This document shows, in pieces, positions 1-64,000 of a DNA stretch of 64,000 bases. A model generated the notes under the pieces. The model saw nothing but the letters and a program-made list of their open reading frames with translations. It ran no database searches and was not told the DNA's origin. The stretch spans positions 1-64,000 of the forward strand of contig CAUYUJ010000331.1 of the NCBI GenBank assembly GCA_963575745.1, in the 5' to 3' direction. Source of the stretch: Prorocentrum cordatum (taxonomy: Eukaryota). The position numbers were made by a program, and so were the translations under genes. Each line of letters opens with the position of its first letter. Position 1 is the stretch's first letter.

Positions 1-8405
<8,405 letters not shown>

Positions 8406-15670: not shown

Positions 15671-15844
15671 AAACCAACTAAGAGACCTCGAGACGGGATG
15701 GTGTATTACAGCATCGCTGCTAGATCTTGGGCTTGCTCCGACTATCCGCCGATCCCTCCTCCTCCGCCTCCTCCTCCTTCTTATTATTATTGTGCTCAGT
15801 CTTATGATTCGCCTTGTTACACTACTCCTACTCGTAAACCTCCT

Positions 15845-18290
<2,446 letters not shown>

Positions 18291-23890: not shown

Positions 23891-23981
<91 letters not shown>

Positions 23982-24275: not shown

Positions 24276-24310
24276 AACTGGAAGCTGGCGGGAAACCGTC
24301 GACCTCGGTT

Positions 24311-33105: not shown

Positions 33106-33215
33106 AACTGGGAGCCGGCGGTAAACCGTCAACCTTGGTTTGTTTTGCGGTTTGCGGTCCGCCACTAGAATCCGAATCCGAATCGGCGGAGCAGTGCAAC
33201 TGAGCCCCCACCATC

Positions 33216-37391: not shown

Positions 37392-38438
37392 CTAGTTCGT
37401 ACTGGAAATCCTCGCTCGCAACTCATCAATGTTGATCCCTGGGTCAAGCTGATTCATTGCACGAGTAATCTCCCAGCCATTCTGCAGAGAGAACTTGGCC
37501 ACCATCTTCCCTGGAGGTGGCAAGTGGTCACTGGAGCCCCACATGAACGTAATCGGTGGTCCCGTCTCAGCCCTGAGATTTGAATGATGCTTCTTGAAAC
37601 TCTTGAACTTTGCCTGAAAGATCCCAGCGGCATCCAGATGGGGCTTCTTCCAGGGGGGGGCCTCCACGTGGACCTTGAAGACCCTGGGAGCGTGCTGGAG
37701 TTTGTTGTCGGCAATCGCGGCGACGAGTCGACGACGGAGATCCCGCAGCTGGTCACTGGTAACCCCATTATGGAAATAAAGCCGAGCACGCGAATAACCC
37801 CATGCCTCTCGACCTGTGTTGAACCTCTTGGATTGGTTCAGGTCCAGAAACTCCTTGACACCACTGAGCCATTCTCCAGCCAGGACCTCATTCAGTAGTA
37901 AATTCAACGCCTGCTGTGATAACATCTCCTCCTGACGCTTCTCTGCATCCCGCCAGTCCGTCACCCATCCCTTGAGCTCGACGAACGACGGAGTGAAATT
38001 CTGCATGGACTGCCGAGCTTCCGCCGAGGACGCCGTCGTAGAGGTGCCTGCTCAGGGGGCCCCACCTGCAGGAGCCTGCTGGAGCTGGATAATCTGGAGC
38101 CTCTGATCCTCCACCTTCTTAGTAATAGCATCTATGTCCGTCATCGCCTGCTGTACATTTTTCTCGACCGAATCAACACGAGCATTGAGTTGGGTGCCGA
38201 GATCCGCGATGCTCCGATGAGTTGACTGGAAGCCCTCAGTCATCTTACCTCCCAGAGATGCAACAAGCATCGTGATCTTGTCCATACCCTTAGTCATGGC
38301 CTCCTCGAGGCCTTCAACCGTCTGAACTTTGACACGTTTTCCCTCTGGGACCTCCTCCTCCTTGGCTCCTGGAACGGGCATATCAGTGGCATCCATGGCG
38401 AAAATCTCGGGGGCTGCAGCAGCTGATGAGGCAGCCAT
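37392..38438 (-). pseudogene. ORF1 of A2 (coiled coil + probable RRM), frameshifted near 38052
   Basis: Two ORF pieces match the continuous ORF1 of copy A4. Confidence 0.85.
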
Positions 38439-38939
38439 CTTGCCGTCTGAGATGTTACAAAGGATATTCCACTTCTCACAGAACGATCGATCTTCTCGAG
38501 TACGTTTGAGATGCGCACTTAACTGATGAAAGTTATATGGGGCAACAGGATTGTGAGGTAAAGTGGGGGATAGATCAGGTGGTCCAGATGGTATGTCAAC
38601 TAGAGAATCTTTATCGTCGTGACAAGATCTACCAACCTGTCTGGCAAGATACTCCCACTCCCAGTGTCCGAAGTTGGATCCCCAGCGGTCCAGATCGATC
38701 GATTGACTCTGGCTCGTCCCGTCCAGCTCGACGCAGCAAAATGCCGCAACAATGCACACAAACAAATACAAACAAATGGCAGGCGGCCTGCTTACCTCGG
38801 ACTCGCCGAAGTCGCCGAAGATGCCGAGTGGCCCGATCGCCACGCGCCCCCGCGCGGCGGGCCAGGCCAGGGGCAGGCAGCCTGACTGCACAATGCAGCT
38901 CGAGCCGCACGAGGAGGCCCCACGAGCCCCAGCAGCGAC

Positions 38940-40767: not shown

Positions 40768-40843
<76 letters not shown>

Positions 40844-45858: not shown

Positions 45859-46248
45859 CCTGGTCACCGCCGGGAACCTCGTAGAGCTCCTTGCACGCGT
45901 AAGAGTGCTCAGAATCGAAGCAGAGAGCTTCTCGGAGCATTTCTAGAAAAACGTTAAATTTGCATTTTTCGGTGTCAACCTGATGTCGGTTGCTCCAAAT
46001 GTTTCGATAGTAAAACTCTCTCTGGGGAGCTGATTCTCTCCCAGAATGAAGTTTAAACACTAACGCTGGACGCAAAAAATCTGATATCTTAAAATCAATG
46101 GTCAAACTGGGAGCCGGCGGTAAACCGTCAACCTTGGTTTTTTGCGGTTTACGGTCAGAGCTGGTAGCGCTGGGGTCAGCGCCACTCGCGCCCTGCCACA
46201 ACTGGCGCATTGCAGTTTCGCAATCCCAGGAGCTTCGAGAGAGGGGCA

Positions 46249-49200
46249 CTACAGGCACAGCCTAATGATGTCCTGAACTCCTCTTAGAAGCTGAGTCGCT
46301 GCACAGAGTTCCGCGGACGCGATGGAAGTGTGGAGGGGGAGGGAGAAGGAGTGTAACGCAACATCTTCATACCACTGCTGGGCACAAGATGGGGAAAAGA
46401 AGAGCCTGGGAGAACACTACTCACGTTCACGTCACATACCCATCCTGCACCAACTCCTTCAGTCGAGACACCCCCGTCAAAGGCACCTCGTATCCCCGAT
46501 ATTGGAATAGTCTTCTGTTGACATTCTCTGATAAACCTCAAATCGAAAACTCGCTCCTGTCGTCCTCTCCTCGCATTCCAAGTCATCCGATCCGCCCTCG
46601 TATTGCCTTCTCTGTACACCCATTTCCAGATATCATGGCCTGCGCTCGGTGGGATAATCCCCGATGTCGTTGTGAGAGAATAAAGCAAGCTAGATACCTC
46701 CGCAATTTCATTCATATAAGTAAGATTGCTAGTATTATATAGCCCCGTCAGCCAATTCACAACCACCTGAGAGTCCCCACTTAATTCCATAGAAACGTAA
46801 CCTGGATAGAATTCCCAAGTAGACTGCCTTTCAAATATGTTTGCCAATCTCCTGGAGGTCTCAATGTTCTTTGGGTGCAGGGGGTCCGTGGACATCTCCT
46901 CGTCCTCCTCCTCCCTCACATGTATGTTGTTGTTCTTGAGCACGAAATACGGTATCATATGCTCGAACTTTCAAGCTCTCGGAGCGCCTGGCGACAGAAA
47001 TCTGACCATCCTTTCTCCGACCACTGAAGATGTCCTCTCCACCAGTACTCACCTCCCACGGAGTCAAAGATGCCAGCCCAGGAGTGGAAAGCTAGACGAT
47101 GAGCACCGTTCGAACGACCGCCGCTGCGACTGATCTCACGAGCCTGCTGGGTTCCAAGATACTCAATAAACAGATCCACTGCCTCCGCCCAAGCAATATT
47201 TCCCACGAGCATCAGAGTACGAGCCTGCAGGTGTGTGTTGAGGATTGCCGACTTCTCCGTCTTCAAGGCCCGCGGAGCAGGCTTGTGACCAAGATTCTCT
47301 TTCAGCCTCTGTGTATTGCCAGAGAGTTGGGTCCTCGTTTTCTTCAGGCCAGCACGTTGAGTTGGGCCCTCCCCCTCCTCTTGTCGACTCCTTTTGGCTC
47401 CATGTCTTCCCTCCTCCTTCGCCTCCTTAATCATCCTCGTGTGTCGTTGTCGCCGATTCTCAGACATTGGGACCTCCTCCTCCATCTCCTCCTGCATATT
47501 GTTGGTGTGTGGGGGCGTAGACACTGTAGAAGAGCAGGGTAACAGGGGTGGAGGAGGTGGAAGTACATGACATAAGGAGTCCGAGATATCCTTTGCCCAC
47601 TCCCACTGTTTACGCAGTACTCGTTGAACGAGACTCTCTCGCCCTGTTCGATGAAGCAACGCTCTCCCTGCTCGTATCCTTTTTGCCAAGAAGAGTGTCC
47701 AGTTTTCTTCCCGTCGTTTGGACCGCCACAGCATTTTGGCCAATAACCCTCCCTCCCTTGCGTGGATGAACTTGAGGCTGTTGGAGTCTATCGTGGCCCC
47801 AACGATGCCATACAGAAAACACGCTTGCACACGACTACAGCATCGAGCAATCTTTTTTCTGAGCGGCGGGGACCGATCATAGTAGTAGCTTTAATCACAC
47901 CAGAATGTTTTTTCCGCAAGCTCCCACCTGTGGTGTATGTCATCATGCTCCCGAAAACGTTTGTCTGTCCTGACCCCCAAGACGTCCATGACATGTACGT
48001 GCGGTAATTCAACTGCTGGATCAACATTCTGAATAATCATGCTACCCTCAGGCGTCTGGCGATATAGTGTTCATATACATGAGTGACTCCTTTTTCCAAT
48101 CAAAACCGTGTCGCCTCAGTGCCGTCGTCATCTCTCTGATCCTTATCTCCAGCTGATCATCCGATGCTGCAAACAAGAATACATTATCAGCACATAACAT
48201 GTTAGTGATATTCCAGTCGTTTGGCGCCCCAACAGTTGAAAGGGATACCCCAGGCCACGCTCAAACCATCCAGTACACACCGGCTCGAAAATCATAATGC
48301 TGACGAGAACCCACAGCATTGGGGCTTCCATCGATCCAATTCTAATACAACTGTCCCAAGGAATACTGGACGTCTCTATCTCCTGAAAACGAGGTGTTGC
48401 CATATTATTGGTATATCCTTCGAGCACTGCATACGCTAAGTTCGGGTCGACGTTGGAGAACCCCATAGCCTCCGCCGCACAAGGTATGGTGAAATTGTCG
48501 AAGGCTCTGGCGACATCAAGTGACGCCCAAGACAGCGAGCACGATTTGCCCCACATGGCCGTGTGCCTCACAATATTCTTGAGGCCACTCGTCACCTCGT
48601 GAGTTCTCCTCCCAGGCATGAATCCATATAATTGACAGTGCTTGTGGCCATCAATCGATCTAACATGCCTCTCCAAAAGTTGTGCTAGACAACTGCTGTA
48701 CCACTTGCTGAATACACTTAGAAGTACGATGGCTCGTGTTTCTGTGAAACAAAGGGCCCCATTCTTTTTGGGAAGTAGCGTGACACACAGCATTCTCCAT
48801 TCTTGAGAAGTGACAGATCTCCTGACATAGAGCTTCTGGAAGGCCTGCAATATCATACATAGAGATGTCCAAGGTAAAGCTTTGAGCAGAGACGCCCCAA
48901 TACCGTCCGCTCCCACTGCCCTCCCCATCTTGAATCTCGCCCTGGCCCGAAGTAAGAGCCCCATGGTAATCGGGTTCCCCTCGAGAGGTGTCGCCTCGGC
49001 CTCCTGGAGTAACTTCTGAACACACTCATCATTGGCAACCTTCTGGGAGCTGTCCGCATATCTGTTTAACCCATGCTGTTGGAGTGCCCTTTCCCAAGCT
49101 AGCCTATCCTCCGTCTTGACCCCATCCACCATGACGTGCGTGATGTGCTTACGTGCCTTCTTTCCGTCCCTAAATTTGTACTGGACCTGGCGGCTACGAT

Positions 49201-50437
49201 AGTGCCGTCGTACTTTATTCCAGATACGTCGACTCTGCCGAAACTCCTCCTTCGTGATCTCCCCCCTCTTCCATTGCTTGTGTTTTTGATAATGTTGATT
49301 CCTCACCTCCACCTCCTCCTTGGTCATCGATGGGGGCCTCAAGGGGTCATGTTGGAGCCCCTCAGGAAACGATGATGCTGTTCTCCTGATAGCTGTTGCC
49401 TGGACCTCAACATCGATCTCGTCCTCAGTGGAAATCACGTCCTCCCCCTCTCCTACTGCAAACGGATGAGATGTGGGAGCAAGGGCATGATCGAGACGCC
49501 TCGCCACAACTTTCTCCATCCCTGGCGGCACTCTCCACTTGGCAAAGGAAGGAATAGCTGGCACCGCCTTTCGAGATCTGATTTTGCTCCATTGGGTCAC
49601 GTTCATTTCCAACAACTAATGATCACTCAAGAGCGTGACGGGCGTGTCCGATGGCATGTCACATGGGAGAATCCAGTGCTTGGCGACAGTGAGATGCGGC
49701 CAACTGCGTGGGATGGCTATATGGTCGTACACATGCTCATATCCATACTGGGAACGCCACGTACATGCACTCACCTCCCCCCGAGATCCCCTTCGATCCC
49801 CAAACGTGTTGGTGAGCTGGAGTCCCAGAGCGCCCAGAGTGGTACATAGGGCGTCCGCCATACAGGTTCTGATAGCATGCTTCTGTTTTTCATGCCCCCC
49901 CCGTCGTGGAGCCTCGGAGCCCGAGGTAGCTTCCCCAGACACCTGGAAACCGTCCCTGACCGAGTTACGAAAGACTTCAACATTCGCATCCATGGAGATA
50001 ATCACATGCTTGATCCCGAACTCATTCTTGAGGTCCTGGACAGATAACGCCATACTAAGTAGCACTTGTTGATACAATGCTACTGTTTCCCGCTGTTTTC
50101 CCAGTTTCCAGAAGAATCGAGAGTATCTTTGTGTGGTAGGTAGAGGGATGCAAAGAGGAAGCCCTGGAAGACACAGATAACGAAACGCTCCTCCAGGCTG
50201 ATGTTTGCGAAAGAGTGGTAATAGCTTTTTTCCCACGGCAACCCCTGCCTTTCCCGTACTGCAAGGGAAGATATGATACGGCGTACCAGTATCAACCACC
50301 TCTTCCTGCATGAATTGACATTCTTGGAGTCCAATGACTTCCAATCCCATGTCAGTGACACGTTTGAAAACTGTGGCAGCCTGACGCGTCCCAAGCCGCC
50401 TTACATTCCAGCCTGCCACACGGCAGCCTGGGCACCC
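46249..50437 (-). pseudogene. Family B ORF2 (APE + RT + permuted RNase H), several stops and frameshifts
   Basis: VAGWNV, GLQE, MDAN, YDHI; RAVGADG, YGF, DVARAFD, LCADN; GDS, REGNTRAD, FDGG; and in a shifted frame SAELCAA. Confidence 0.9.
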
Positions 50438-51745
50438 CTACTCCGACCTGTTACTCTTAGCCTGGAGGTCCCGCGCGTCAATCGAGCTGTCGACTTTCGC
50501 AACCCCCGAGGCTGTGAGTTTCCATCCATCTCCTCGCGTCCAGACCCCAAAGCATACTTCATGTGCTCTCTGCATCTGCGGACGTGCGTACGCCCAACTC
50601 AAAGTACTTCCACCGTGTTCAACTCTGCACTGGGCCGTCGATACCTGTTTCATACTGTAAAGACCGCCGTAAGTTGCTTACCTGCTCGAACTTGGGACTC
50701 TTTCCATGGGGGATTCTCAACTTCCAGAGCCAAACGTTGATCGATCCTGACCCCCAAGGAGTCCTCACTTCGTAATCTCACATCTTTATTTTGAATAGCC
50801 TCCCACCACTCTCTCCGTACCTCCCACACCGTATTTTTGGATACTCTTGGCTTGAAAAAGACCTGAATCTGATAGACTCCATCCCGTCGGTGGTTGGCTC
50901 CAGAGGTCGCGATGCGATCGAAGATCTTAACCTCCTCACTCTCACGATGTCCAGAAATATCATTGATGAGTACTTTCACCGTCTGCTCTGTATTATCAGG
51001 AGGCAAGTTACGATCAGTACGTCCAACCACCTGTCTCGGATCACCTGTGGCCCATCCCTTAAGAACAATCCATCCTGGTGTATGCTCTGGGCGAACAATA
51101 TTCCAATCCGTGTTGTCAATACCCCTTCGACTCCCAGCATCAGATGGCGGTCCAGAAGTGCCCGCCCTCGTACTGGCCCCCATGGAGAGGACGTGCTGGG
51201 TCCAAATTCGGATTATGAAGCTTTGTGATGGCCTGCTCCTGCTCTAACTGTTTCCACTTCACGTCCTCCACATCCCTGGCGACGTTATTCAACGAGTCCC
51301 TGACAGGTGCCACCTCCTCCCGAACTAAAGCACGTCTTTCTTCTTTGAAACTCTCGAGTTTGGATTCCATCGTTCTGGTTTGATTGGAAAACATCGTAGC
51401 CAGAAAATCTTTGAGATCCGCATCCTGAGGACCCTGTGCTGGAGGTGGTGGCGGTGGGGCTGCCTTCCTGGAGGGCAGAGTCGAGCGTCCAATACCTGGG
51501 TCGTATGCTGCTGATGACTTGGCCTGCACTGGGGGTCCTGGTTTAACCGCAGTCGATGAGGCATCACTGGGGGCCGTGGGTACCTGTTCTGTCGGGCCTC
51601 CAGGGGCTGGGGCTGGACGGAAGCCTCCAGGGCCCCCTTTCCAAGCCTCTCCCTCACGAGAACCTGTCGCACCTCCTCCTCCAGCTCCTCTAGCTTCCTC
51701 TCCACGCAATCCTACATCATCCACCTACATACCTGACCCTGCTGC
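50438..51745 (-). pseudogene. Family B ORF1, disrupted
   Basis: Coiled-coil segment. WIVLKGW and VENPPWK match FVELKGW and VEAPPWK of family A. Confidence 0.8.
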
Positions 51746-52300
51746 CATTCTGCTAAGATGAAGGGCCCGTAGAAAGTCGTCTTCCTCAGGTGCCTCTTCA
51801 AGGGGTATATCACGATCGATATCATCGAGATCAATATGTACACACTCCTGTCTGTGAACTAATATGTTGCCCTGATGATATACAGCGTTCTGGGAAGAGT
51901 TCCACACTGAGTCCCCACTGTTGTCGAAATCGTCAGAGAAAGCCGTGGCGTCAACAATTTGCACCCAACTGCGTCAGGGGAAAAACTGGGCAAGGTGGAC
52001 CAGCACACACGTAACTGCACGAGCAATAACTGTAACAGCAAGCGACAGTGCGCACACCAATCCTGCACCAACAAGAGACAAGGAAGACACAGAAGAGATA
52101 AGCTGCAAGCAACAAACCAAGTGCACCTGAAAGAAATAGACCTGTCAATGTCCAGCTGCCAGAGGTCCAGCTGCCAGACTGCAGGCTCCCCTGCCGCAGC
52201 GATCGCACGGCCCCCCGCGCGCGCGGCCGACCCCCTGCCCTTCCGCACAATGCGGCTCGAGCCGCACGAGGAGGCCCCACGAGCCCCAGCGGCAACCTTG

Positions 52301-55300
52301 TTTTTTTTTGCGGTTTGCGGTCCGCCACTAGAATCCGAATCCGAACCGGCGGAACAGTGCAACTGAGCCCCCACCTTCTTAGGTAGGTCGCAGCAGGGCG
52401 CACGCCACCTTAGCAGCAGCTCTCGTCAGGGCAGCGCAGACAGCTAGTTCACAGCAGGTTACCGTGCTACCTGGAGGCAAGCTCATCGCCTCCTCGGCCA
52501 CACCGTGCCAATGGAAGCTCTGCGAGCTGATGCAGGAGGAAGAGGAGGAGGAGGAGGAGGAGGAGGAGATGGGAAAATCAACCTGCACGCTGGAACCCCT
52601 ACCTACTACGCCAATATGAAGCCACCACCCGCCTCCACATCCTTCATTACTGACACCCCCGTCGAATGCACCACGGAGAGCAGTCTTACGAGTACTGAGG
52701 AACTGATCATATGCAAACCAGCGAGTAATAGTTTGGCCACCTCTGGCCTCCCACGACAATCTACCCGCACGTTCATTACCCTCACGAAAGAAATGTTTAT
52801 ACAGATTCTGTCCCGATGCAGGTGAGGTCAGTCCCCATCCAGACAGCATCGATAGAGTATGTTGTAGTGTTCCCACCAGTCGTACATACTGCTTGTTACG
52901 TATCTGTCACTCACCACACATCCAGTTAACGACCGTCTTACTATCTCCCAAGATTTCCCTCCCAAGACGTTCAATATTCTCACACCTCCACTCCGTTTCA
53001 TTCTCATAATTAGCGGCAATACGTTTGCTTATCCTCTCATTCATCTCTCTCTCCACCTCCTCCTCCGCCTTCACGCACCTCACACCAGGTGCCCTGGGTA
53101 AAACAAATGACTCGAACAAGCGTTGCATGCCAATCACAGTCCGCAGATGTTTGCAATGCTGCTCGCGGGACCCAGCGGAGCTGTCGAACGAGAGGTACCG
53201 CTCACAACCAAAGAAATCGCACAAACACCAATCCCATACAGTATGTCCACGGGCGGGTGCACCCACGCCCATGCGCGTGAGATGCTTCCTATCTTTTGCA
53301 GGCAACGCCAGACTACATGTGTCCCGATGTTCCGTCCACCTCCCCCTTCCACGTAGCATGGCCAGCCTAGATATCATCCATTCACGTGAGATGTTCGACT
53401 CCTCAGGCATGGCAGGCTGATCATCCGTTGTCCGCCGACGACCCCCACTCGACCTCTGGGAGATCTCGGATACTTGAGGAGCCGCCGCCGCCGCCATCGC
53501 CCGAGTTTTTCTATGACGCCGATTTGGTACCGTCTCCACCTCCTCCCCCACTGTGTGCGTTGTGTACCTCCTCATACGAATACTTGCAGCAGCTGAGACA
53601 TCATTGGCCCAATCCCAACAACGAAATATCCATATCTGCACCGCACTTCGAAATCCAAGCTCAACAAACCTCTGCCGTCCAACTTTGCATCGCCTACGTT
53701 GAAACTCAGACCATCCTTCAGTTCTCCGCTTGCGTAGACCTGACATCAACGCCAGGCATCTCCCCTCAAAGGAGTGAACAGCAGCAATGGTGGAATAGTC
53801 GGGCGCTCGGCCCTCACAGTTGCATAATAATGCAGCCATCACTTTAGCTTGATAACGAGTAAATCTCTCAGCCAAATCAATACCAGAACAGCGATAATAG
53901 GCGACTTCCCCAAATAATACCTTCTGGGCTTTCTGGAGCATGGCCTCTGAATCCGAGTGGTCCTTCCAGGTCTCCTCCAGAGTGGCTCCCAGGATCTCAA
54001 ACGACTGAACACGCGGCAGGACCACCTCTCGGGCCCCGAGAGCAGGATCACAAGACGGCACCAGCACACGGATATCCTGCTCGGGGGACGGCGGGATGCC
54101 AGGCGGCGCACCAAAGTAAATATACATCAAGGATTTCGGTTTCCAGGTCATTCCTGCATTCATCAGCGGGATACGCATGTCACGCACCATCAGCTCGAGG
54201 TCAGAGCGAGCCTTCGCATACAATAAGAGATTATATGCCCAGAAACTGTGGGTCATACGCTCACCGTTGAACATACGCTCATCATTTTCCAACTTGATAC
54301 CGTACTGCGTATCCTGCCTCCACCTGTCAATCACATCTCTCCAGAGTACAATAGGTATTGCTAGAAAAATGATCGGGCCCTCCACTCCTCCCGTTCGAAT
54401 GGATGTGTCCCAATAGACAGCTGAAGATGCCTCGATGCCCTCGAAGCTGGCCACACACGGATTATCAATCACGGGTTCAATCAACGCCACAATGAGATCG
54501 GCTGGTATATCAAGAGCACGAAGACAGCGCATGGCGAGGCACGGGGTGACAGTATCGGATGCTTGTAAAATATCAAGATTGGCAAGCCACAAACTGTCTC
54601 CTTTGCCCCAGACAGCGGAGTGCTGGCTGAGCCTTTTGGCAACGCTGGTGATTTCCGACGTTTTTCGTCCCGATCTGAATCCGCACAGGCATATATAGTG
54701 TCGGTGCTCCTCAGACCTCTGCTCAATCATCATCACAATACATGTCATGTACCATGTCATAAGACACGACTGTAGACATAGTACACGTGTATCTGTCAAG
54801 TGTTGTATGTTCATTTCCTTAGGCATGAGCGTGGCAGCTAGTTGACACCAACTGTCGGGGCAACATAACCTGCGGGAATACACACCTTGGAAGCTCACCA
54901 GAACACGTCGGAGAGATGCCCACGAGAGCTGTTTCAACATCATGACAGTGACTTTGCCGGGGCCTGGGGCCTTTCCCGTGGACAGCTTCGCCCTCGCCCG
55001 CAGCAGGAGCGACATCGAGAACACCTCCGAGGACCCGCTTCCCGAACATAGACCACGCAGCGACTGTAGCTCACGAAGGGTCACCTCCCTGGCCTCGGGG
55101 TCCTCGACCTTAGACTTCATGTGCCCCAATATCTCGTTCCCCCACTCCTCGCGGTTCTGAGACTCCATCCCGTTGGCAAGGATCAGCGTCTCCGTCTTGG
55201 CCCTCCTCCTCCTCCTCGTGTTCATCTCCGTCTTCCACCTCTGCACTTTTGCCTCCAGCCTCCTCCTTTCTCTCCTCACTATCTTTGAGCACCGTTTGGC

Positions 55301-57951
55301 CTCCTCTCTATCCCCACGACGAAGTGTTTCGCGTTACTTTCCTGGGCGGCCAAGTGGATCTCGGATTTCTTTGGTACATTATTTCTGGGATTGGTATCCT
55401 TCTGGGGGGTCTCCTCGGCGGCCTTTATGAGGTCAGGTCCTATCATGTCCAACATCTCCTGTCGATCCTCAGGGTCAGCATTTTCCTGGCGCAATGCACG
55501 GTAACGACTGCCCCGATCGTCCATGTTCTTCGCAAACTCGAACTGCGACACCGGTTGCAAGTAGATGAATTTTCGAGCAGGATGGGTCCGTCTCTTCGCA
55601 GACGGTGCACAAGACAAGCGAACAACTAGGCAAGCGTGGTCAGACAGCGCACGCTCGCATCTGCTGCATGGGTGCTCCGTCCAGGCGCGGCCCACTTCCG
55701 CAGGCAGCATCCAGCCTACAGTGAGCTCCTGCCTGTGTAAACGACGGCTGACACCAACATAGTCGAGTACCTTCTCCACCCCCGTATTTGATTTGAAAGT
55801 AACCCTCCTCTGCCCAAATGTGTTCTCCATCCTTATGCCCCAGAGCCCGCAGAAGTCCAGTGGGGCCCTCCTCATAGATTGCAGCCTAGACGCCCGTCGG
55901 ATTTCGAAGCCCGAGACAACCCTATGAGGTCTTGTTTTACGTGCACAACGTTTCGTTTGAGTCATATACGGGTTGCCGTCATCCGATCATTCCTCCATCC
56001 CAGTATCTCTCTCCGTAGTATCCCCAGCGATCCCAGACGCCTCCAAAAGCCCTGATCCAGTAACTCTAAAGCCGTTGACCTCCGAATCTGGCTCGAGTTC
56101 GACGTTAGCATCTGTCAGGAAGACCAGGTCCTGCGGCTGCTTCGGGAACTTAGACCTATGTGTGCGAATCACTTTGGATATATCAAACAACGTCTGTTCA
56201 TACACATCATGTTCATGCTGTTCTTCCGTAAGGGTACGAATACTCTCACGCGGCATATATGCAACAATAACCGTAACACTAGAATAACTACAAATCACAA
56301 AACCTTTGCCACGATATGTGGCCCTGAGCGAGTCTCTCCAAGACTTAGACATGATCACCGCAGCCTTCCGACAAGTACTCCGAAAAATTGTGTAACCTCG
56401 CATGTTGAGATCACGAGCTGAAAGGAACTGGCACTCGCACAACCCCGCGAGGCCCACATCTAAGCGACGTAGTGAATTAAGTATGTCATGGCCGTTCTCT
56501 GCACCTGCCCGACGCACATTCCATGACGCAATGGTGTCGTGGCACCTCTAGCTCGTACTGGAAATCCTCGCTCGCAACTCATCAATGTTGATCCCTGGCT
56601 CAAGCTGATTCATTGCACGAGTAATCCCCCGGCCATTCTGCAGAGAGAACTTGGCCACGATCTTCCCTGGAGGGGGTAGGTGATCACTGGAGCCCCACAT
56701 GAACGTAGTCGGTGGTCCCGTCTCAGCCCTAAGATTTGAATGATGCTTCTTGAAGCTCTTGAACTTTGCCTGAAAGATCCCAGCGGCATCCAGATGGGGC
56801 TTCTTCCAGGGGGGGGGGGCTCCACGTGAACCTTGAGGGCCCTGGGAGCATGCTGGAGTTTGTTGTCGGCAATCGCGGCGACGAGTCGACGACGGAGATC
56901 CCACAGATGGTCACTGGTAACCCCTTTCTGGAAATAGAGCCGAGCACGCGAATAACCCCATGCCTCTCGACCTGTGTTGAACTTCTTGGATTGGTTCAGG
57001 TCAAGAAGCTCCTTGACACCGCTCAACCACTCCCCAGCCAGGACCTCATTCAGGAGTGAATTCAACGCCTGCTGCGATAACATCTCCTCCTGACGCTTCT
57101 CTGCATCCCGCCATTCAGTCACCCATCCCTTGAGCTCGACGAATGTCGGAGTGAAATTCTGCATGGACTCACGAGCTTCCGCCGAGGACGCCGTCGTAGA
57201 GGCGCCTGCTCTGGGGCCCCACCTGCAGGAGCCTGCTGGAGCTGAATAATCTGAAGCCTCTGATCCTCCACCTTCTTACTAATAGCATCTATGTCCGTCA
57301 TCGCCTGCTGCACATTTTTCTCGACCGAATCAACACGAGCATTGAGTTGGGTGCCGAGATCCGCGATGCTCCGATGAGTAGACTGGAACCCCTCAGTCAT
57401 CTTACCTCCCAGAGATGCTACAAGCCCCGTGATCTTATCCATACCCCTAGTCATGGCCTCCTCGATACCCTCGACAGTCTGAACTTTGACACGTTTTCCC
57501 TCTGGGACCTCCTCCTCCTTGGCTCCTGGAACGGGCATATCAGTGGCATCCATGGCGAAAATCTCGGGGGCAACAGCAGCTGATGAGGCAGCCATCTTAC
57601 CGTCTGAGATGTTGCAAGGGGTATTCCACTTCTCACAGAACGATCGATCTTCTCGAGTACGTCTGAGATGTGCACGTAACTGATGAAAGTTATATGGGGC
57701 AACAGGATTATGGGGTAAAGTGGGAGACAGATCAGGTGGTCCAGATGGTATGTCAACCAGAGAACCTTTATCGTCACGACGAGATACACAAACCTGTCTG
57801 GCAAGATATTCCCACTCCCAGTGTCCGAAGTTCGATCCCCAGCGGTCCAGATCAATCGATAAACTCTGGCTCGTCCCGTCCAGCTCGACGCAGGCTGCCT
57901 GACCGCACAATGCGGCTCGAGCCGCACGAGAAAGCCCAGAGTTCCCGGCGG
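52301..57951 (-). mobile_element. LINE family A, copy A3, near full length, degenerate
   Basis: Tail abuts the 5' end of B. Frameshifts, stops, a WAYN RT motif and a 5' UTR deletion. Followed by CAACCTCGGTT (57952-57962). Confidence 0.95.
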
Positions 57952-57962
57952 CAACCTCGGTT

Positions 57963-58453
57963 TTTGAGTTTGAGTCAGGGCGCGGACAGCTGTGACAGCT
58001 GAGCCCTAAGACTCCCAAACGGAGCACAGGGCAGCTAGAGAAGGCATCTCTTATCATCACACTGCCGAGCCACTGAGGCATAGGCATCGGAATAGGATGC
58101 AGGAACAAGGAAAAGGATGCAGCACGACATGTGAAATTGCAAAGGTGTGGGAACAGGTTAGAGATGAAAGAGGCTACCCAAAACGTGCACCACGGCCATA
58201 CAGAGCCGTTGCGCTGGAAACATCACACAGAACACGACAGAAGCCGAGGCATCAAGCGAGAAAGCTTCCTCCGCCACCAACAGCCACGTCCCGTGTACAC
58301 ACAAACCTAAACACCATTCTGCAGCACATCCCTCCACAGAGTGACCTCCGTCGAAGAATCCACGGAGGCCGTCTAGTTCTGTTTTGCTCGCATGTTCAAT
58401 AAGGGAAGTATGGAATACAACGTAACAATTTCTGGTTCTGGCCAACCATGTCA
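57963..58453 (-). mobile_element. LINE family C, 5'-truncated 3' fragment
   Basis: Translates LTWLAR...GLRGFFDGGHSVEGCAAEWCL...VAEEAFSL, homologous to the A/B C-terminus. Tail GACTCAAACTCAAAAA. Target flank GGGAACTCGTAGAGCTT resumes at 58454. Confidence 0.85.
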
Positions 58454-58926
58454 GGGAACTCGTAGAGCTTGCCCCTGGCCTGGCCCGCCTGCCCCTGGCC
58501 TGGCCCGCCGCGCGGGGGCGCGGGGCGATCGGGCCACTCGGCATCTTCGGCGACTTCGGCGAGTCCGGGGCAAGCAGGCCGCCTGCCATGTGTTTGTATT
58601 TGTTTGTGTGCATTGTCGCGGCATTTTGCTGCATCGAGCTGGACGGGACGAGCCAGAGTTTATCGATTGATCTGGACCGCTGGGGATCGAACTTCGGACA
58701 CTGGGAGTGGGAATATCTTGCCAGACAGGTTGGTGTATCTCGTCGTGACGATAAAGATTCTCTAGTTGACATACCATCTGGACCACCTGATCTGTCTCCA
58801 ACTTTACCCCATAATCCTGTTGCCCCATATAACTGTCATCAGTTACGTGCACATCTCAAACGTACTCGAGAAGATCGATCGTTCTGTGAGAAGTGGAATA
58901 CCCCTTGCAACATCTCAGACGGTAAG

Positions 58927-59973
58927 ATGGCTGCTTCATCAGCTGCTGTTGTCCCCGAGATTTTCGCCATGGATGCCACTGATATGCCCGTTCCAGGAGC
59001 CAAGGAGGAGGAGGTCCCAGAAGGAAAACGTGTCAAAGTTCAGACTGTCGAGGGCCTCGAGGAGGCCATGACTAGGGGCATGGATAAGATCACGGGGCTT
59101 GTAGCATCTCTGGGAGGTAAGATGACTGAGGGCTTCCAGTCTACTCATCGGAGCATCGCGGATCTCGGCACCCAACTCAATGCTCGCGTTGATTCGGTCG
59201 AGAAAAATGCGCAGCAGGCGATGACGGACATAGATGCTATTACTAAGAAGGTGGAGGATCAGAGGCTTCAGATTACTCAGCTCCAGCAGGCTCCTGCAGG
59301 CGGGGCCCCCAGAGCAGGCACCTCTACGACGGCGTCCTCGGCGGAAACTCGTGAGTCCATGCTGAATTTCACTCCGTCATTCGTCGAGCTCAAGGGATTG
59401 GTGACTGACTGGCGGGATGCAGAGAAGCGCCAGGAGGAGATGTTATCACAGCAGGCGTTGAATTCACTCCTGAATGAGGTCCTGGCTGGAGGATGGTTCA
59501 GTGGTGCCAAGGAGCTTCTTGACCTGAACCAATCCAAGAAGTTCAACACAGGTCGAGAGGCATGGGGTTATTCGCGTGCTCGGCTCTATTTCCGGAAAGG
59601 GGTTACCAGTGACCAGCTGTGGGATCTCCGTCGCCGACTCGTCGCCGCGATTGCCGACAACAAACTCCAGCATGCTCCCAGGGCCCGCAAGGTTCACGTG
59701 GAGGCCCCCCCCTGGAAGAAGCCCCATCTGGATGCCGCTGGGATCTTTCAGGCAAAGTTCAAGAGCTTCAAGAAGCATCATTCAAATCTTAGGACTGAGA
59801 CGGGACCACCGATTACGTTCATGTGGGGCTCCAGTGATCACCTACCCCCTCCAGGGAAGATCGTGGCCAAGTTCTCTCTGCAGAATGGCTGGGAGATTAC
59901 TCGTGCAATGAATGAGCTTGAGCCAGGGATCAAAATTGATGAGTTGCGAGCGAGGATTTCCAGTACGAACTAG
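58927..59973 (+). CDS. Intact ORF1 of A4 (348 aa from MAASS): coiled coil + probable RRM/CTD, L1-ORF1p-like layout
   Basis: Continuous frame with a heptad-like segment (LEEAMTRG...LQITQLQQ) followed by FVELKG. The start codon is inferred. Confidence 0.8.
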   Translation: MAASSAAVVPEIFAMDATDMPVPGAKEEEVPEGKRVKVQTVEGLEEAMTRGMDKITGLVASLGGKMTEGFQSTHRSIADLGTQLNARVDSVEKNAQQAMTDIDAITKKVEDQRLQITQLQQAPAGGAPRAGTSTTASSAETRESMLNFTPSFVELKGLVTDWRDAEKRQEEMLSQQALNSLLNEVLAGGWFSGAKELLDLNQSKKFNTGREAWGYSRARLYFRKGVTSDQLWDLRRRLVAAIADNKLQHAPRARKVHVEAPPWKKPHLDAAGIFQAKFKSFKKHHSNLRTETGPPITFMWGSSDHLPPPGKIVAKFSLQNGWEITRAMNELEPGIKIDELRARISSTN

Positions 59974-62900
59974 AGGTGCCACGACACCATTGCGTCATGG
60001 AATGTGCGTCGGGCAGGTGCAGAGAACGGCCATGACATAATTAATTCACTACGTCGCTTAGATGTGGGACTCGCGGGGTTGTGCGAGTGCCAGTTCCTTT
60101 CAGCTCGTGATCTCAACATGCGAGGTTACACAATGTTTCGGAGTACTTGTCGGAAGGCTGCGGTGATCATGTCTAAGTATTGGAGAGACTCGCTCAGGGC
60201 CACATATCGCGGCAAAGGTTTTGTGATTTGTAGTTATTCTAGTGTTACGGTTATTGTTGCATATATGCCGCGTGAGAGTATTCGTACCCTTACGGAAGAA
60301 CAGCATGAACATGATGTGTATGAACAGATATTGTTTGATATATCCCAAGTGCTTCGCACACATAGGTCTAAGTTCCCGAAGCAGCCGCAGGACCTGGTCT
60401 TCCTGACAGATGCTAACGTCGAACTCGAGCCAGATTCGGAGGTCAACGGCTTTAGAGTTACTGGATCAGGGCTTTTGGAGGCGTCTGGGATCGCTGGGGA
60501 TACTACGGAGAGAGATACTGGGATGGAGGAAGGATCGGATGACGGCAACCCGTATATGACTCAAACGAAACGTGGCGCACGCAAAACAAGACCTCATAGG
60601 CTTGTCTCGGGCTTCGAAATCCGACGGGCGTCTAGGCTGCAATCTATGAGGAGGGCCCTACTGGACTTCTGCGGGCTCTGGGGCATAAGGATGGAGAACA
60701 CATTTGGGCAGAGGAGGGTTACTTGCAAATCAAGTACGGGGGTGGAGAAGGTACTCGACTATGTTGGTGTCAGCCGTCGTTTACACAGGCAGGAGCTCAC
60801 TGCAGGCTGGATGCTGCCTGCGGAAGTGGGCCACGCCTGGACGGAGCACCCATGCAGCAGATGCGAGCGTGCGCTGTCTGACCACGCTTGCCTAGTTGTT
60901 CGCTTGTCTTGTGCACCGTCTGCGAAGAGACGGACCCAGCTTGCTCGAAAATTCATCTACTTGCAACCGGCGTCGCAGTTCGAGTTTGCGAAGAACATGG
61001 ACGATCGGGGCAGTCGTCACCGTGCATTGCGCCAGGAAAATGCTGACCCTGAGGATCGACAGGAGATGTTGGACATGATGGGACCTGACCTCATAAAGGC
61101 CGCCGAGGAGACCCCCCAGAAGGATACCAATCCCAGAAATAATGTACCAAAGAAATCCGAGATCCATTGGGCCGCCCAGGAAAGTAAACGCGAAGCACTT
61201 CGTCGCGGGGATAGAGAGGAGGCCAAACGGTGCTCAAAGATAGTGAGGAGAGAAAGGAGGAGGCTGGAGGCAAAAGTGCAGAGGTGGAGGACGGAGATGA
61301 ACACGAGGAGGAGGAGGAGGGCCAAGACGGAGACGCTGATCCTTGCCAACGGGATGGAGTCTCAGAACCGCGAGGAGTGGGGGGACGAGATATTGGGGCA
61401 CATGAAGTCTAAGGTTGAGGACCCCGAGGCCAGGGAGGTGACCCTTCGTGAGCTACAGTCGCTGCGTGGTCTATGTTCGGGAAGCGGGTCCTCGGAGGTG
61501 TTCTCGACGTCGCTCCTGCTGCGGGCGAGGGCGAAGCTGTCCACGGGAAAGGCCCCAGGCCCCGACAACGTCACTGTCATGATGTTGAAACAGCTCTCGC
61601 GGGCATCTCTCCGACGTGTTCTGGTGAGCTTCCAAGGTGTGTATTCCCGCGAGTTATGTTGCCCCGACAGTTGGCGTCAACTAGCTGCCACGCTCATGCC
61701 TGAGGAAATGGACATACAACACTTGACAGATACACGTGTACTATGTCTACAGTCGTGTCTTATGAAATGGTACATGACATGTATTGTGATGATGATTGAG
61801 AAGAGGATTGAGGAGCACCGACACTATGTATGCCTGTACGGATTCAGATCGGGACGAAAAACATCGGAAATCACCAGCGTTGCCAAAAGGCTCAGCCAGC
61901 ACTCCGCTGTCTGGGGCAAAGGAGACAGTTTGTGGCTTGCCAATCTTGATATGTTACAAGCATTCGATAATGTCACCCCGTGCCTCGCCATGCGCTGTCT
62001 TCGCGCTCTTGATATACCAGCCGATATCATTGTGCCGATGATTGAACCCATGATTGATAATCAGTGTGTGGCCAGCTTCGAGGGCATCGAGGCATCTTCA
62101 GCTGTCTATTGGGACAAATCTATTCGAACGGGAGGAGTGGAGGGGCCGATGATTTTTCTAGCAGTATCTATTGTACTCTGGAGAGATGTGATTGGCAGGC
62201 GGAGGCAGGATACGCAGTACGGTATCAAGTTGGAAAATGATGAGCGCATGTTCAACGGTGAGCGTATGACCCACAGTTTCTGGGCAGATAATCTCTTATT
62301 GTATGCGACGACTCGCTCTGACCTCGAGCTGATGGTGCGTGACATGAGTATCCCGCTGATGAATGCAGGAATGACCTGCCGTCTTGTGATCCTCTCTCGG
62401 GGCCCGAGAGGTGGTCCTGCCGCGTGTTCAGTCGTTTGAGATCCTGGGAGCCACTCTGGAGGAAACCTGGAAGGACCACTCGGATTCAGAGGCCATGCTC
62501 CAGAAAGCCCAGAAGGTATTCTTTTGGGAAATCGCCTATTATCGCTGTTCTGGCATTGATTTGGCTGAGGGATTTCCTCGCTATCAAGCTAAAGTGATTG
62601 CTGCATTATTATTCAACTGCGAGGGCCGAACGCCCGACTATTCCACCATTGCTGCTGTTCACCCCTTTGAGGGGAGACGCCTGGCGTTGATGTCAGGTCT
62701 ACGCAAGCGGAGAACTGAAGGATGGTCTGAGTTTCAACGTAGGCGATACAAAGTTGGACGGCAGAGGTTTGTTGAGCTTGGATTTCGAAGTGCGGTGCAG
62801 ATATGGATATTTCGTTGTTGGGATTGGGCCAAGGATGTCTCAGTTGCTGCAAGCATTCGTATGGGGAGGTACACAACACACACAGTGGAGGAGGAGGTGG

Positions 62901-64000
62901 AGACGGTACCAAATCGGCGTCAGAGAAAAACTCGGGCGATGGCGGCGGCGGCGGCTTCTCAAGTATCCCAGATCTCCCAGATGTCGAGTGGGGGTCGTCG
63001 GCGGACAACGGATGATCAGCCTGCCATACCTGAGGAGTCGAACATCTCACGTGAATGGATGATATCTAGGCTGGCCATGCTACATGGAAGGGGGAGGTGG
63101 ACGGAACATCGGGACACATGTATTCTGGCGTTGCCTGCAAAAGATAGGAAGCATCTCACACGCATGAGCATGGGTGCACCCGCCCGTGGACATACTGTAT
63201 GGGATTGGTGTTTGTGCGATCTCTTTGGTTGTGAGTGGTACCTCTCGTTCGACAGCTCCGCTGGGCCCCGCGAGAAATATTGCAAACATCTGCTGACTGT
63301 GATTGGCATGCAACACTTGTTCGAGTTATTTGTTTTACCCAGGCCACCTGGTGTGAGGCACGCGAAGGCGGAGGAGAAGGTGGAGAGAGAGATGAATGAG
63401 AGGATTCGCAAACGTATTGCCGCTAATTTTGAGAATGAAACGGAGTGGAGGTGTGAAAGTATTGAACGTCTTGGGATGGAAATCTTGGGAGATAGTAAGA
63501 CGGTCGTTAACTGGATGTGTGGTGAGTGGCAGATACGTAACAAGCAGTATGTACGACTGGTGGGAACACTACAAAATACTCTATCGATGCTGTATGGATG
63601 GGGGACTGACCTCACCTGCATCGGGACATAATCTGTATAAACATTTCTTTCGCGAGGGCAATGAACGCGCGGGTAGATTGTCGTGGGAGGCCAGAGGTGG
63701 CCAAACTATTACTCGCTGGTTTGCATATGATCAGTTCCTCAGTACTCGTAAGACTGCTCTCCGCGGTGCATTCGATGGGGGTGTCATTAATGAAGGATGT
63801 GGAGGCAAGTGGCGGCTTCAGATTGGCGTAGTAGGTAGGGGTTCCAGCGTGCAGGTTGATTTTCCCATCTCCTCCTCCTCCTCCTCCTCCTCTTCCTCCT
63901 GCATCAGCTCGCAGAGCTTCCATTGGCACGATGTGGCCGAGGAGGCGATGAGCTTGCCTCCAGGTAGCACGGCAACCTGCTGCGAACTAGCTGCCTGCGC
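59974..64000 (+). pseudogene. ORF2 of A4 with a deletion/frameshift near 62377 and a frameshift near 63605
   Basis: Compared with A2, the WKPKSL...IRVLV segment is missing and the frame changes. Confidence 0.9.

What the first reader, a model, noticed from the sequence alone, without database searches (positions are those of the whole stretch)
59960..60025. ORF1-TAG-ORF2 in one frame: probable stop-codon readthrough
ORF1 ends in TAG and the same frame continues RCHDTIASWNV, the first APE motif, with no ATG. This holds in A2 (37392), A3 (56548) and A4, and in B (50438: TAG then GCPGCRVAGWNV). The context TAG-RGG-TGC-C is conserved and followed by a stem-loop (A: UGCC/GGCA, CGAC/GUCG, CCAU/AUGG; B: CCAG/CUGG, CUGCC/GGCAG). 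It recalls gammaretroviral UAG-G readthrough, which is unusual for LINEs.
Basis: partly seen in the sequence, partly recalled or inferred. Interest (0 to 1): 0.75.

Follow-up and report, generated by a model that had tools for sequence, protein, structure and literature searches.

The report
In-frame leaky stop between LINE genes
In a group of jumping genes (LINEs) from a dinoflagellate-like alga, the first gene ends in a single stop codon that stays in frame with the enzyme gene behind it, so the enzyme is probably made when ribosomes occasionally read through that stop, as in some retroviruses.

Summary
Three copies of LINE family A (TAG at 59971-59973 +, 37392-37394 -, 56548-56550 -) and one copy of family B (TAG 50438-50440 -; 25% protein identity to A) have ORF1-TAG-ORF2 in one frame. 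There is no ATG before the first endonuclease motif (WNV), which lies 8 or 9 codons after the stop.

Two further, very divergent families from metagenome contigs (L001, L002) are also in frame, with one stop (TGA in both), no ATG and no second stop before WNV. That makes 4 of 4 families. All 24 ORF1 homologue clusters that reach the C-terminus end at the same aligned position.

Two of the four stops carry textbook readthrough hexanucleotides: L001 UGACGG and B UAGGGG. Stop-NGG-UGC-C is shared by A, B and L001 even though the encoded residues differ. A local hairpin follows the stop in three families.

Programmed readthrough giving an ORF1-ORF2 fusion is the best reading (about 0.55). Restart of translation in place, without an AUG, gives the same genomic signature and is not excluded. 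No RNA or protein data were available.

Readthrough has already been proposed for same-frame Paramecium LINEs, so this is a new member of a known kind.

The parts
58487..64000 (+). Family A LINE copy (my A1; runs off the window end). ORF1 is intact; ORF2 is broken by an 84-nt gap near 62378 relative to the other copies.
   Evidence: blastn self-comparison; translation
58588..59970 (+). ORF1 of A1, 461 codons with no internal stop. The C-terminal 226 aa fold as an RRM-like domain plus a second alpha/beta domain.
   Evidence: 0 TAA/TAG/TGA in frame; model pLDDT 88; weak two-domain match to human L1 ORF1p, Z 5.2
59971..59980 (+). The stop and its conserved context, TAG AGG TGC C.
59974..60006 (+). 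Eight spacer codons (RCHDTIAS) without ATG or stop, then the WNV codons (first APE motif).
59977..60015 (+). Local stem-loop starting at +7 from the stop (UGCC/GGCA, CGAC/GUCG, inner helix). Its 3' arm covers the W-N-V codons.
   Evidence: -16.8 kcal/mol, top 1.2% of 40-nt windows; block-corrected p 0.03; not favoured in longer folds
59974..62376 (+). ORF2 of A1 (APE and start of RT), open to the 84-nt gap.
   Evidence: (RVT_1, E 1e-09)
59963..60016 (+). 54-nt stretch (GTACGA...GGGCAG, next base G) that is absent from the A-like database protein P0003. It contains the TAG and the WNV codons.
   Evidence: single-block alignment, 96 of 112 identical when it is skipped
33106..38878 (-). Family A copy (my A2), about 5.8 kb. 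ORF2 is intact (1391 codons, 33219-37391, ends TAA at 33216-33218). ORF1 has one internal stop.
37392..37394 (-). Junction TAG of A2.
52290..57937 (-). Family A copy (my A3), with frameshifts in both ORFs.
56548..56550 (-). Junction TAG of A3.
46100..51800 (-). Family B LINE copy, decayed (approximate ends).
   Evidence: tblastn: 25% identity to A ORF2 over 1040 aa; translation
50431..50440 (-). B junction, TAG GGG TGC C (type III hexanucleotide UAGGGG).
   Evidence: classification from PMC13517186
50408..50431 (-). B hairpin CCAG-G-CUGCC GUGU GGCAG-G-CUGG, spanning +10 to +33; the inner stem starts at +15.
   Evidence: z -2.76; -18.1 kcal/mol, p 0.02

Best explanation
These are APE + RT (+ RNase H-like) non-LTR retrotransposons with a gag-like ORF1. 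ORF1 ends in one leaky stop (UAG or UGA), and ORF2 has no start codon of its own before its first catalytic motif.

Proposed mechanism (inferred). Most ribosomes terminate and make ORF1 protein. A small fraction decode the stop with a near-cognate tRNA and continue in frame. Two features would help this: the local context (CG-RAN-stop-NGG-UGC-C in three families, UGA-C in the fourth) and a hairpin whose stable inner stem begins about 11 nt after the stop. The product would be an ORF1-ORF2 fusion of about 1850 residues in family A. That would set a low enzyme-to-coat ratio, as Gag-Pol does in gammaretroviruses.

Shown here: the frame, the absence of an AUG, the conservation of the stop, the sequence context, and the predicted hairpins.

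Inferred only: that ribosomes read through, which residue is inserted, the efficiency, and that the fusion is the active enzyme.
For: 1. Frame. 4 of 4 families (A, B, L001, L002; ORF1 identities to A 22-32%; A vs B ORF2 25%) have stop and APE in frame 0. The spacers are 8, 9, 13 and 29 codons, so several indels occurred and all were multiples of 3. No ATG and no second stop occur in those 59 codons.

2. The stop is kept. All 24 ORF1-type hits that reach the C-terminus, among the 150 listed of 727, end within -3 to +7 residues of A's stop position. An intact B ORF1 from elsewhere (P0152, 584 aa) ends in the same residues as the window's B.

3. An AUG-started ORF2 would lack the catalytic Asn. 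The first in-frame Met lies after WNV in A, B, L001 and L002.

4. Stop identity and context. The stops are UAG, UAG, UGA and UGA, none UAA, while A's ORF2 ends in UAA. L001 has UGACGG (type II; 8 of 9 bases as Colorado tick fever virus UGA CGG UGU). B has UAGGGG (type III). The classification and the virus table come from PMC13517186 (passages read).

5. Constraint at the nucleotide level. GGUGCC sits at +5 to +10 in A, B and L001, while the residues differ (R/G/R, C, H/P/Q). Relatives with their own Met start 1-2 residues before WNV (P0070 MSWNV, P0046 MVTWNV), so those residues are dispensable for the endonuclease.

6. Hairpins directly 3' of the stop: A -16.8, B -18.1, L001 -16.4 kcal/mol in 40 nt, with block-corrected empirical p 0.03, 0.02 and 0.053 (L002 0.15). 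Fisher gives 0.002. The inner stems of B and L001 both begin at +15. The helix CCAN/N'UGG that closes on the Trp codon has U-A, G-C and A-U at the variable pair in A, B and L001.

7. Not a changed genetic code. There are 0 in-frame TAG/TGA/TAA in 461 + 1391 codons, against 5-51 per stop type in the off frames. Two different stop codons are used at the junction.

8. In DNA contigs of 4 public runs, none of the 40 listed variant positions (of 60) falls within 59935-60056. One 95%-alike contig spans the whole junction.
Against: - There is no direct evidence. No RNA run holds the element, and there are no peptides or ribosome data.
- A's UAGAGG and L002's UGACAAAUU are not canonical readthrough motifs.
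- A's hairpin is not favoured in 70-120-nt folds (z -0.75, -1.1). L002 has no significant structure (z +0.6).
- Hairpins that start at +7 to +10 would be partly inside the mRNA channel when the stop is in the A site.
- Restart at the codon next to the stop would also keep spacer indels in multiples of 3, so the frame test does not separate it from readthrough.
- Related elements have ORF2 with its own AUG, so the enzyme does not need to be fused to ORF1.
- The only two database proteins that cross the junction (P0003, P0122) both have a gap exactly at the stop. They are therefore not evidence for natural fusions.
- No Rfam family matches.
Confidence: 0.55

Rival explanations
1. Termination and restart in place. 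Ribosomes terminate at the ORF1 stop, the small subunit stays on the RNA (perhaps held by the hairpin or the GGUGCC element), and it resumes at or just after the next codon without an AUG. This would give a free ORF2 protein, as proposed for human L1 ORF2 (AUG-independent) or, with an AUG, for SART1.
For: There is no AUG anywhere in the 8-29-codon spacers, so any separate initiation must be non-AUG. Reviews describe L1 ORF2 initiation as independent of its AUG and SART1 coupling as needing a downstream structure (PMC5009743 and PMC5972666, passages read). Relatives with an AUG right before WNV (P0070, P0046) show that a free ORF2 protein is functional in this group. In-frame near-cognate codons exist in the spacers (AUU in A and L002, GUG in B and L001; read).
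Against: It does not predict leaky stop types or the canonical readthrough hexanucleotides in L001 and B. It does not predict that the stop itself stays in frame, unless restart is exactly adjacent. Mammalian L1 junctions, as I recall them, vary in frame and spacer and contain extra stops; here there are 0 extra stops in 59 codons. No stop-start overlap (AUGA, UAAUG or UUGA type) is present in any of the 4 families.
Confidence: 0.28
2. Splicing. A short intron containing the stop is removed from part of the transcripts and fuses ORF1 to ORF2.
For: P0003 (89% identical to A) lacks exactly 54 nt, 59963-60016. In A these begin GT, end AG and are followed by G. Skipping them gives one gap-free alignment, 96 of 112 identical. 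P0122 (a partial gene model named Prorocentrum cordatum by its source) also runs from ORF1 into WNV with a gap at the stop.
Against: The 54 nt also remove WNV, the catalytic Asn motif, so that product would lack an active endonuclease. Gene predictors routinely draw short GT-AG introns over in-frame stops, and I could not tell whether P0003 and P0122 come from RNA or from gene models. A 2-nt microhomology (GT) equally fits a genomic deletion. The donor is not conserved: B has GT shifted by one base, and L001 and L002 have none within 12 nt (sequences). No joints were seen in the contigs of 4 runs, but those listed as known kinds are DNA. Splicing does not explain why the stop stays in frame.
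Confidence: 0.07
3. No special mechanism. Either the copies examined are dead and the in-frame stop is inherited decay, or the host decodes the stop by other means (a changed code, editing, a suppressor tRNA).
For: None of the four A/B copies in the window is fully intact. L001 and L002 are decayed downstream.
Against: The stop sits at the same aligned position in 24 of 24 ORF1 clusters, and in four families at 22-32% identity. Differences among the A copies are enriched at third codon positions (ORF1 57 vs 22 and 27; ORF2 67 vs 42 and 35), so the lineage evolved under selection with the stop in place. No stop triplet occurs elsewhere in 1852 intact codons, and both UAG and UGA are used at the junction.
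Confidence: 0.05

Closest known systems
Paramecium Group 3 non-LTR retrotransposons (Guerin et al. 2017, PMC5405496; passages read)
   Same: APE + RT LINEs with an upstream ORF1 in the same frame as ORF2. [quoted passage not shown] That proposal also rests on sequence inference only.
   Different: Different host (a ciliate with a variant code), a different clade, and ORF1 ends in a zinc finger. No conserved context or downstream structure is described in the passages I read. Here four families at 22-32% identity, two stop types and canonical hexanucleotides support the case.
Arabidopsis ATLN LINEs (Noma, Ohtsubo and Ohtsubo 2000, DNA Res 7:291). Only the reference entry was seen; the paper is not held and the content is recalled.
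   Same: As I recall, part of the family has orf1 and orf2 in frame, separated by an amber codon, with a possible downstream structure, and suppression of the stop was proposed.
   Different: This is recalled, not checked. It is a plant L1-clade element, and other ATLN members use -1 overlap. Here all families examined use the in-frame stop.
Gammaretroviral gag-pol readthrough (MoMLV; type III UAG-GGA plus an H-type pseudoknot from +12; PMC13517186)
   Same: The logic is the same: one in-frame UAG between the structural and enzymatic genes, a G after the stop, a downstream structure and a fusion product. B has UAGGGG, which fits the type III pattern UAGGGV.
   Different: A has UAGAGG, and L001 and L002 use UGA. 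Hairpins, not a demonstrated pseudoknot, start at +7 to +10 (inner stems at +15). There is no protease to release the enzyme. It is a non-LTR element.
Type II viral readthrough, UGA-CGG plus an extended stem-loop (Venezuelan equine encephalitis virus, Colorado tick fever virus; PMC13517186)
   Same: L001 has UGA CGG UGC, against CTFV UGA CGG UGU, followed by a 12-bp hairpin.
   Different: The viral stem-loops start at +12 and are 78-126 nt long. L001's hairpin starts at +9 and is 34 nt.
Human L1 and Bombyx SART1 bicistronic translation (Alisch 2006 and Kojima 2005, as described in PMC5972666 and PMC5009743)
   Same: LINE ORF2 is made from the same RNA as ORF1 without a conventional scanning start. 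SART1 needs a downstream structure.
   Different: L1 has a 63-nt spacer. SART1 has overlapping UAAUG. Here there is no AUG, a single stop and strict frame conservation.

Membership tests
Programmed stop-codon readthrough site (Beier-Grimm types I-III, as summarised in PMC13517186) | The stop is UAG or UGA, not UAA. | tested here: met
   A UAG, B UAG, L001 UGA, L002 UGA. With n = 4, this is not significant by itself.
Programmed stop-codon readthrough site (Beier-Grimm types I-III, as summarised in PMC13517186) | A canonical hexa- or nonanucleotide: UAGCAAUUA; UGACGG or UGACUA; UAGGGV, UAGGUA or UAGGAU. | tested here: inconclusive
   Met by L001 (UGACGG) and B (UAGGGG). Not met by A (UAGAGG) or L002 (UGACAAAUU, which has only the CAA of type I)..
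Programmed stop-codon readthrough site (Beier-Grimm types I-III, as summarised in PMC13517186) | The downstream ORF is in frame 0, open from the stop, and has no start codon of its own. | tested here: met
   4 of 4 families; 59 spacer codons without ATG or stop.
Programmed stop-codon readthrough site (Beier-Grimm types I-III, as summarised in PMC13517186) | A stimulatory RNA structure a few nucleotides 3' of the stop (+2 to +16 in the review's table). | tested here: inconclusive
   Hairpins at +7 (A), +10 (B) and +9 (L001). Empirical p 0.03, 0.02 and 0.053; L002 0.15. A is not supported in longer folds. Only 3 distinct sequences are available for covariation.
Programmed stop-codon readthrough site (Beier-Grimm types I-III, as summarised in PMC13517186) | A readthrough product is actually made. 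| not testable with these tools
   No RNA holder among the runs; no proteomics available.
Gammaretrovirus-type (MoMLV) readthrough signal | UAG-GGR context with an H-type pseudoknot starting at +12. | tested here: inconclusive
   The context fits B only. No pseudoknot prediction was run. No Rfam family matched at gathering score or at E<=1, which does not exclude one.
APE-type non-LTR retrotransposon (LINE) | Reverse transcriptase domain. | tested here: met
   Pfam RVT_1, E 1.7e-11 (A2) and 1e-09 (A1), above the curated cut-off.
APE-type non-LTR retrotransposon (LINE) | An N-terminal apurinic-type endonuclease with the catalytic motifs. | tested here: inconclusive
   WN...E(C)Q...DANVE...SDH are aligned between A and B, and WNV and QE in all five rows. 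The assignment of these motifs to APE is from my knowledge. Pfam gave no APE hit at E<=0.01 and phmmer found no PDB hit.
APE-type non-LTR retrotransposon (LINE) | Multi-copy with 5' truncated copies, a defined 3' end and target-site duplications. | tested here: inconclusive
   There are three near-full copies and one 3' fragment sharing a 3' end. Word depth is in the hundreds in two runs. Target-site duplications and the tail were not examined.
L1-type ORF1p (coiled coil + RRM + CTD) | RRM followed by a CTD fold in the C-terminal half. | tested here: inconclusive
   Model pLDDT 88. Human L1 ORF1p is the top Foldseek hit at E 0.03. It is the only target spanning both domains, but Z is only 5.2 with rmsd 6.5 over 180 residues. 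No Pfam hit.
Termination-reinitiation with stop-start overlap (SART1 UAAUG, calicivirus or influenza B type) | An AUG overlapping or within a few nucleotides of the stop. | tested here: not met
   There is no in-frame AUG in any spacer and no AUGA/UAAUG at the stop in the 4 families. This lowers membership only. An AUG-less restart remains a rival.

The most novel reading that the evidence does not exclude
A whole, widespread group of dinoflagellate-type LINEs makes its endonuclease/reverse transcriptase only as an ORF1-ORF2 fusion. The fusion would come from readthrough of a single UAG or UGA, driven by a compact signal not yet described (CG-RAN-stop-NGG-UGC-C plus a hairpin closing on the Trp codon of the endonuclease). 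That signal would work with either stop codon. If so, Gag-Pol logic evolved in non-LTR elements, and this would be a first defined recoding signal for dinoflagellates.
Probability: 0.35. Interest if true: 0.7.

Novelty: new member of a known kind. Interest (0 to 1): 0.5.

Why it matters
How LINEs translate ORF2 from a bicistronic RNA is a long-standing open point. Even for human L1 the reviews read here call the mechanism unknown or unconventional.

A LINE group in which four deeply diverged families keep one leaky in-frame stop, textbook readthrough contexts and no AUG gives a clean, directly testable case. A 100-nt cassette in a dual reporter, or one peptide spanning the stop, would settle it.

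It would also show that stop-codon recoding signals known from RNA viruses and retroviruses work in dinoflagellate-type hosts, for which my two literature searches found no report.

There is a practical consequence. Gene predictors appear to split these elements or to draw false introns over the stop (P0003, P0122). Annotation of such genomes should therefore treat ORF1-stop-ORF2 as one unit.

Tried and rejected
- Whole genome: none is held.
- Word-based protein search with ORF2: no hit at E<=0.001.
- First metagenome scan, with an ORF2 alignment: 36 pattern matches, none confirmed.
- Viral contigs with the ORF1 alignment: none confirmed. The 19-row alignment was too diverse to give a pattern.
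- Prokaryote genome contigs: 2 confirmed stretches but 0 loci returned, so no DNA came from there.
- Junction-profile searches for fused forms. 'Longer' gave only P0152, which is an ORF1. 'Near' gave only P0122 and P0003. I do not count these two as natural fusions, because both have a gap exactly at the stop.
- Sequencing runs: no RNA holder was listed. Contigs of X1, X2, X9 and X3 showed no joints and no loose ends at the junction. These are DNA or of unknown kind, so this says nothing about splicing or expression.
- Spliced leader: a 21-nt dinoflagellate leader motif (recalled) has 0 matches with up to 3 mismatches in the window. Trans-splicing at the stop is also unlikely because L001 and L002 have no AG there.
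- Changed genetic code: rejected.
- Rfam: no match.
- PDB sequence search with ORF2: no hit.
- Long-range pairing: the 10-mer at A's junction has a perfect complement 656 nt upstream in two copies, but nothing comparable exists in B, L001 or L002. I treat it as probable chance.
- Earlier notes of this scan, by words and by sequence: none on this junction.
- Literature: the Noma et al. 2000 paper is not held. Searches found no tested case of LINE readthrough.


Full report
**What is there.** The window holds three long copies and one 3' fragment of a 5.8-kb non-LTR retrotransposon (family A), plus one decayed copy of a second family (B).
- My A1 is 58487-64000 (+), A2 is 33106-38878 (-), and A3 is 52290-57937 (-).
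- The 3' fragment is 24276-25786 (-). B lies at about 46100-51800 (-).
- The A copies are 95-97% identical to each other. B's ORF2 is 25% identical to A's over 1040 residues.
- A2 has an intact ORF2 of 1391 codons and A1 an intact ORF1 of 461 codons.
- ORF2 carries a Pfam RVT_1 domain.
- In front of the RT, an endonuclease region has the motifs WN, E(C)Q, DANVE and SDH aligned between A and B. I recognise these as APE motifs from knowledge; Pfam gave no APE hit.

**The observation.**
- In all three A copies ORF1 ends ...ISSTN-TAG and the same frame continues RCHDTIASWNV.
- In B it ends ...SNRSE-TAG and continues GCPGCRVAGWNV.
- There is no ATG between the stop and WNV. In A the first in-frame Met is 48 codons in, behind both the Asn and the Glu that I take to be catalytic.

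**Not a changed code.** The intact ORFs (461 + 1391 codons) contain no TAG, TGA or TAA. The off frames contain 5-51 of each type across the two ORFs. A's ORF2 ends in TAA.

**Relatives.** A full HMMER scan with the ORF1-(TAG read as Q)-ORF2 product gave 727 hits at E<=0.001.
- ORF1 belongs to a large family without a Pfam name.
- Of the 150 listed hits, 24 are ORF1-type and reach the C-terminal region. All 24 end within -3 to +7 residues of the position of A's stop. The stop is therefore a conserved feature, not decay.
- P0152, an intact 584-residue B-type ORF1 from another source, ends in the same ...KSNRSE.
- The C-terminal 226 residues of A's ORF1 fold with pLDDT 88 into an RRM-like domain followed by a second alpha/beta domain.
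- Human L1 ORF1p is the top Foldseek hit (E 0.03). It is the only solved chain that spans both domains, but at Z 5.2 this is suggestive only.

A pattern from the ORF1 motif PWK[QK]PH found two relatives in metagenome contigs; these were the only two loci found.
- L001 corresponds to the P0021 family and L002 to the P0035 family. Their ORF1 identities to A are 30-32%.
- L001 reads ...KLNAPN-TGA-RCQNAAELAVATWNV.
- L002 reads ...YRLDNS-TGA-QIGRRRKQKTLEGVETGAGESSATLVLASWNV.
- In both, the stop and the endonuclease share one frame. The spacer has no ATG and no further stop, and the other two frames are closed.
- So 4 of 4 families are in frame. The spacers are 8, 9, 13 and 29 codons, so indels occurred and all kept the frame.

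**Context.** The four junctions read as follows:
- A: ACG AAC UAG AGG UGC CAC
- B: UCG GAG UAG GGG UGC CCA
- L001: CCG AAU UGA CGG UGC CAA
- L002: AAU UCU UGA CAA AUU GGU

According to the classification quoted in a 2026 review (PMC13517186, passages and table read):
- UGACGG is the type II readthrough hexanucleotide. Colorado tick fever virus has UGA CGG UGU.
- UAGGGV is type III.
- L001 and B therefore carry canonical signals. A (UAGAGG) and L002 (UGACAA...) do not.

GGUGCC at +5 to +10 is shared by A, B and L001, although the encoded residues differ (R/G/R, C, H/P/Q). Upstream, NCG-RAN is also shared while the residues differ (T-N, S-E, P-N). Relatives whose ORF2 has its own Met begin only one or two residues before WNV (P0070 MSWNV, P0046 MVTWNV). 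The conserved bases therefore do not serve the endonuclease, and a constraint at the RNA level is the simpler reading.

**Structure.**
- B and L001 have clear hairpins: CCAG-CUGCC/GGCAG-CUGG from +10 in B, and CCAA-UGCUGCCG/CGGUGGCA-UUGG from +9 in L001. Both inner stems start at +15.
In longer folds it is not preferred, and its z-scores are unremarkable.
- I ranked the best 40-nt fold starting +4 to +17 from the stop against all equally sized blocks within 1.4 kb. The fractions were 0.03 (A), 0.02 (B), 0.053 (L001) and 0.15 (L002).
- In A, B and L001 the outer helix closes on the Trp codon (CCAU/AUGG, CCAG/CUGG, CCAA/UUGG), a pair that changes on both sides. With three sequences this is only a hint.
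- The review places known stimulators at +2 to +16 and states that 11-12 nt after the A-site codon lie in the mRNA channel. The inner stems at +15 fit that well; the outer pairs would have to open.

**Other evidence.**
- Differences among the three A copies are enriched at third codon positions in both ORFs, so the lineage diversified under selection with the stop in place.
- In contigs of four public runs the family is highly repeated.
- None of the 40 listed variant positions (of 60) lies in 59935-60056.
- One 95%-alike contig from a metagenome spans the junction.
- No RNA run was available.

**Proteins that cross the junction.** Only two of the listed hits do.
- P0003 (89% identical to A) lacks 18 codons, including TAG and WNV. 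In A the missing 54 nt (59963-60016) begin GT, end AG and are followed by G. Skipping them gives one gap-free alignment, 96 of 112 identical.
- P0122, a partial gene model that its source names Prorocentrum cordatum, runs from ORF1 into WNV with a gap at the stop.
- These could be real splice forms, a deletion (there is a 2-nt microhomology), or introns drawn by gene predictors to avoid the stop. I could not tell which.
- The donor site is not conserved in B, L001 or L002, and the A form would lack the catalytic Asn. I therefore rate splicing low.

**Mechanism.**
- Best supported (about 0.55): programmed readthrough of a leaky stop giving an ORF1-ORF2 fusion. This is the Gag-Pol logic transplanted to a LINE.
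- Main rival (about 0.28): termination followed by restart at the adjacent codon without an AUG. This leaves the same genomic footprint (coding spacer, frame kept) and has a partial precedent in the AUG-independent translation of human L1 ORF2, as described in reviews. It does not predict the leaky stop types or the canonical hexanucleotides.
- Splicing (0.07) and decay or other decoding (0.05) are minor.

**Host.** Earlier notes of this scan on other pieces of the same genome call it a dinoflagellate, because LINEs there begin with the spliced leader. I found no leader in this window and did not verify the host. The only named relative is from a dinoflagellate.

**Novelty.**
- Read-through has been proposed for same-frame Paramecium Group 3 LINEs (PMC5405496).
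- As I recall, it was also proposed for Arabidopsis ATLN elements (paper not held).
- My searches found no experimentally tested case and nothing on dinoflagellate LINEs.
- This is therefore a new, comparatively well-supported member of a known but unproven kind. It is of moderate interest and easy to test.

Noticed in passing
window 1-6393, 7532-8404; also 15843-16266, 17591-18295, 20886-22659: Kilobase-scale imperfect trinucleotide and hexanucleotide arrays: ATC-like for 6.4 kb with GC skew down to -0.74, then CTA, TAC and CAGCCT arrays. They give long spurious ORFs in several frames. A 100-N gap lies at 16267-16366.
   Followed up: no
window 23447-23870, 26311-26993, 28393-28782, 30036-30529, 39223-39861, 41052-41827: Arrays of a roughly 170-188-bp satellite flank the LINE copies. 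The sequence at A2's 5' flank (38888-38940) recurs at A3's 3' flank (52245-52297), suggesting a preferred target. Earlier notes of this scan describe LINE targeting of a repeat in this genome. Poly(A) runs of 105 and 73 nt lie at 23876-23980 and 40768-40840.
   Followed up: partly
window 59317-59326 (+ copy) and 38039-38048 (- copy): Inside ORF1, 656 nt upstream of the stop, lies a perfect reverse complement of the 10-mer UAGAGGUGCC at the junction. It is G.U-compatible in the third copy. Nothing comparable exists in B, L001 or L002. It is either a possible long-range pairing or chance.
   Followed up: partly
window 59963-60016: A 54-nt stretch bounded by GT...AG|G is exactly what the A-like database protein P0003 lacks. 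It could be a cryptic mini-intron, a deletion, or a gene-predictor intron over the stop.
   Followed up: partly
window about 62378 (+ copy): The + copy lacks about 84 nt present in both - copies (34903-34987, 54060-54144), which ends its ORF2 early.
   Followed up: no
window 58167-58481 (-): An RNase H-like fragment, 27% identical to the C-terminus of A's ORF2, abuts the 5' end of the + copy. It is probably the 3' end of a third LINE family.
   Followed up: no
window 58588-59970 (ORF1) and relatives P0021-P0151: ORF1 defines a large family without a Pfam model, with conserved motifs such as E-KGW, N-GR, PWK-PH and GPP. The predicted fold is RRM-like plus a second domain, weakly like L1 ORF1p.
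   Followed up: partly
L002 5361-9019; L001 1501-1840: Both metagenome copies are decayed downstream of the junction. L001 has stops after about 113 ORF2 codons. L002 has a stop near ORF2 codon 540 and later frameshifts.
   Followed up: no
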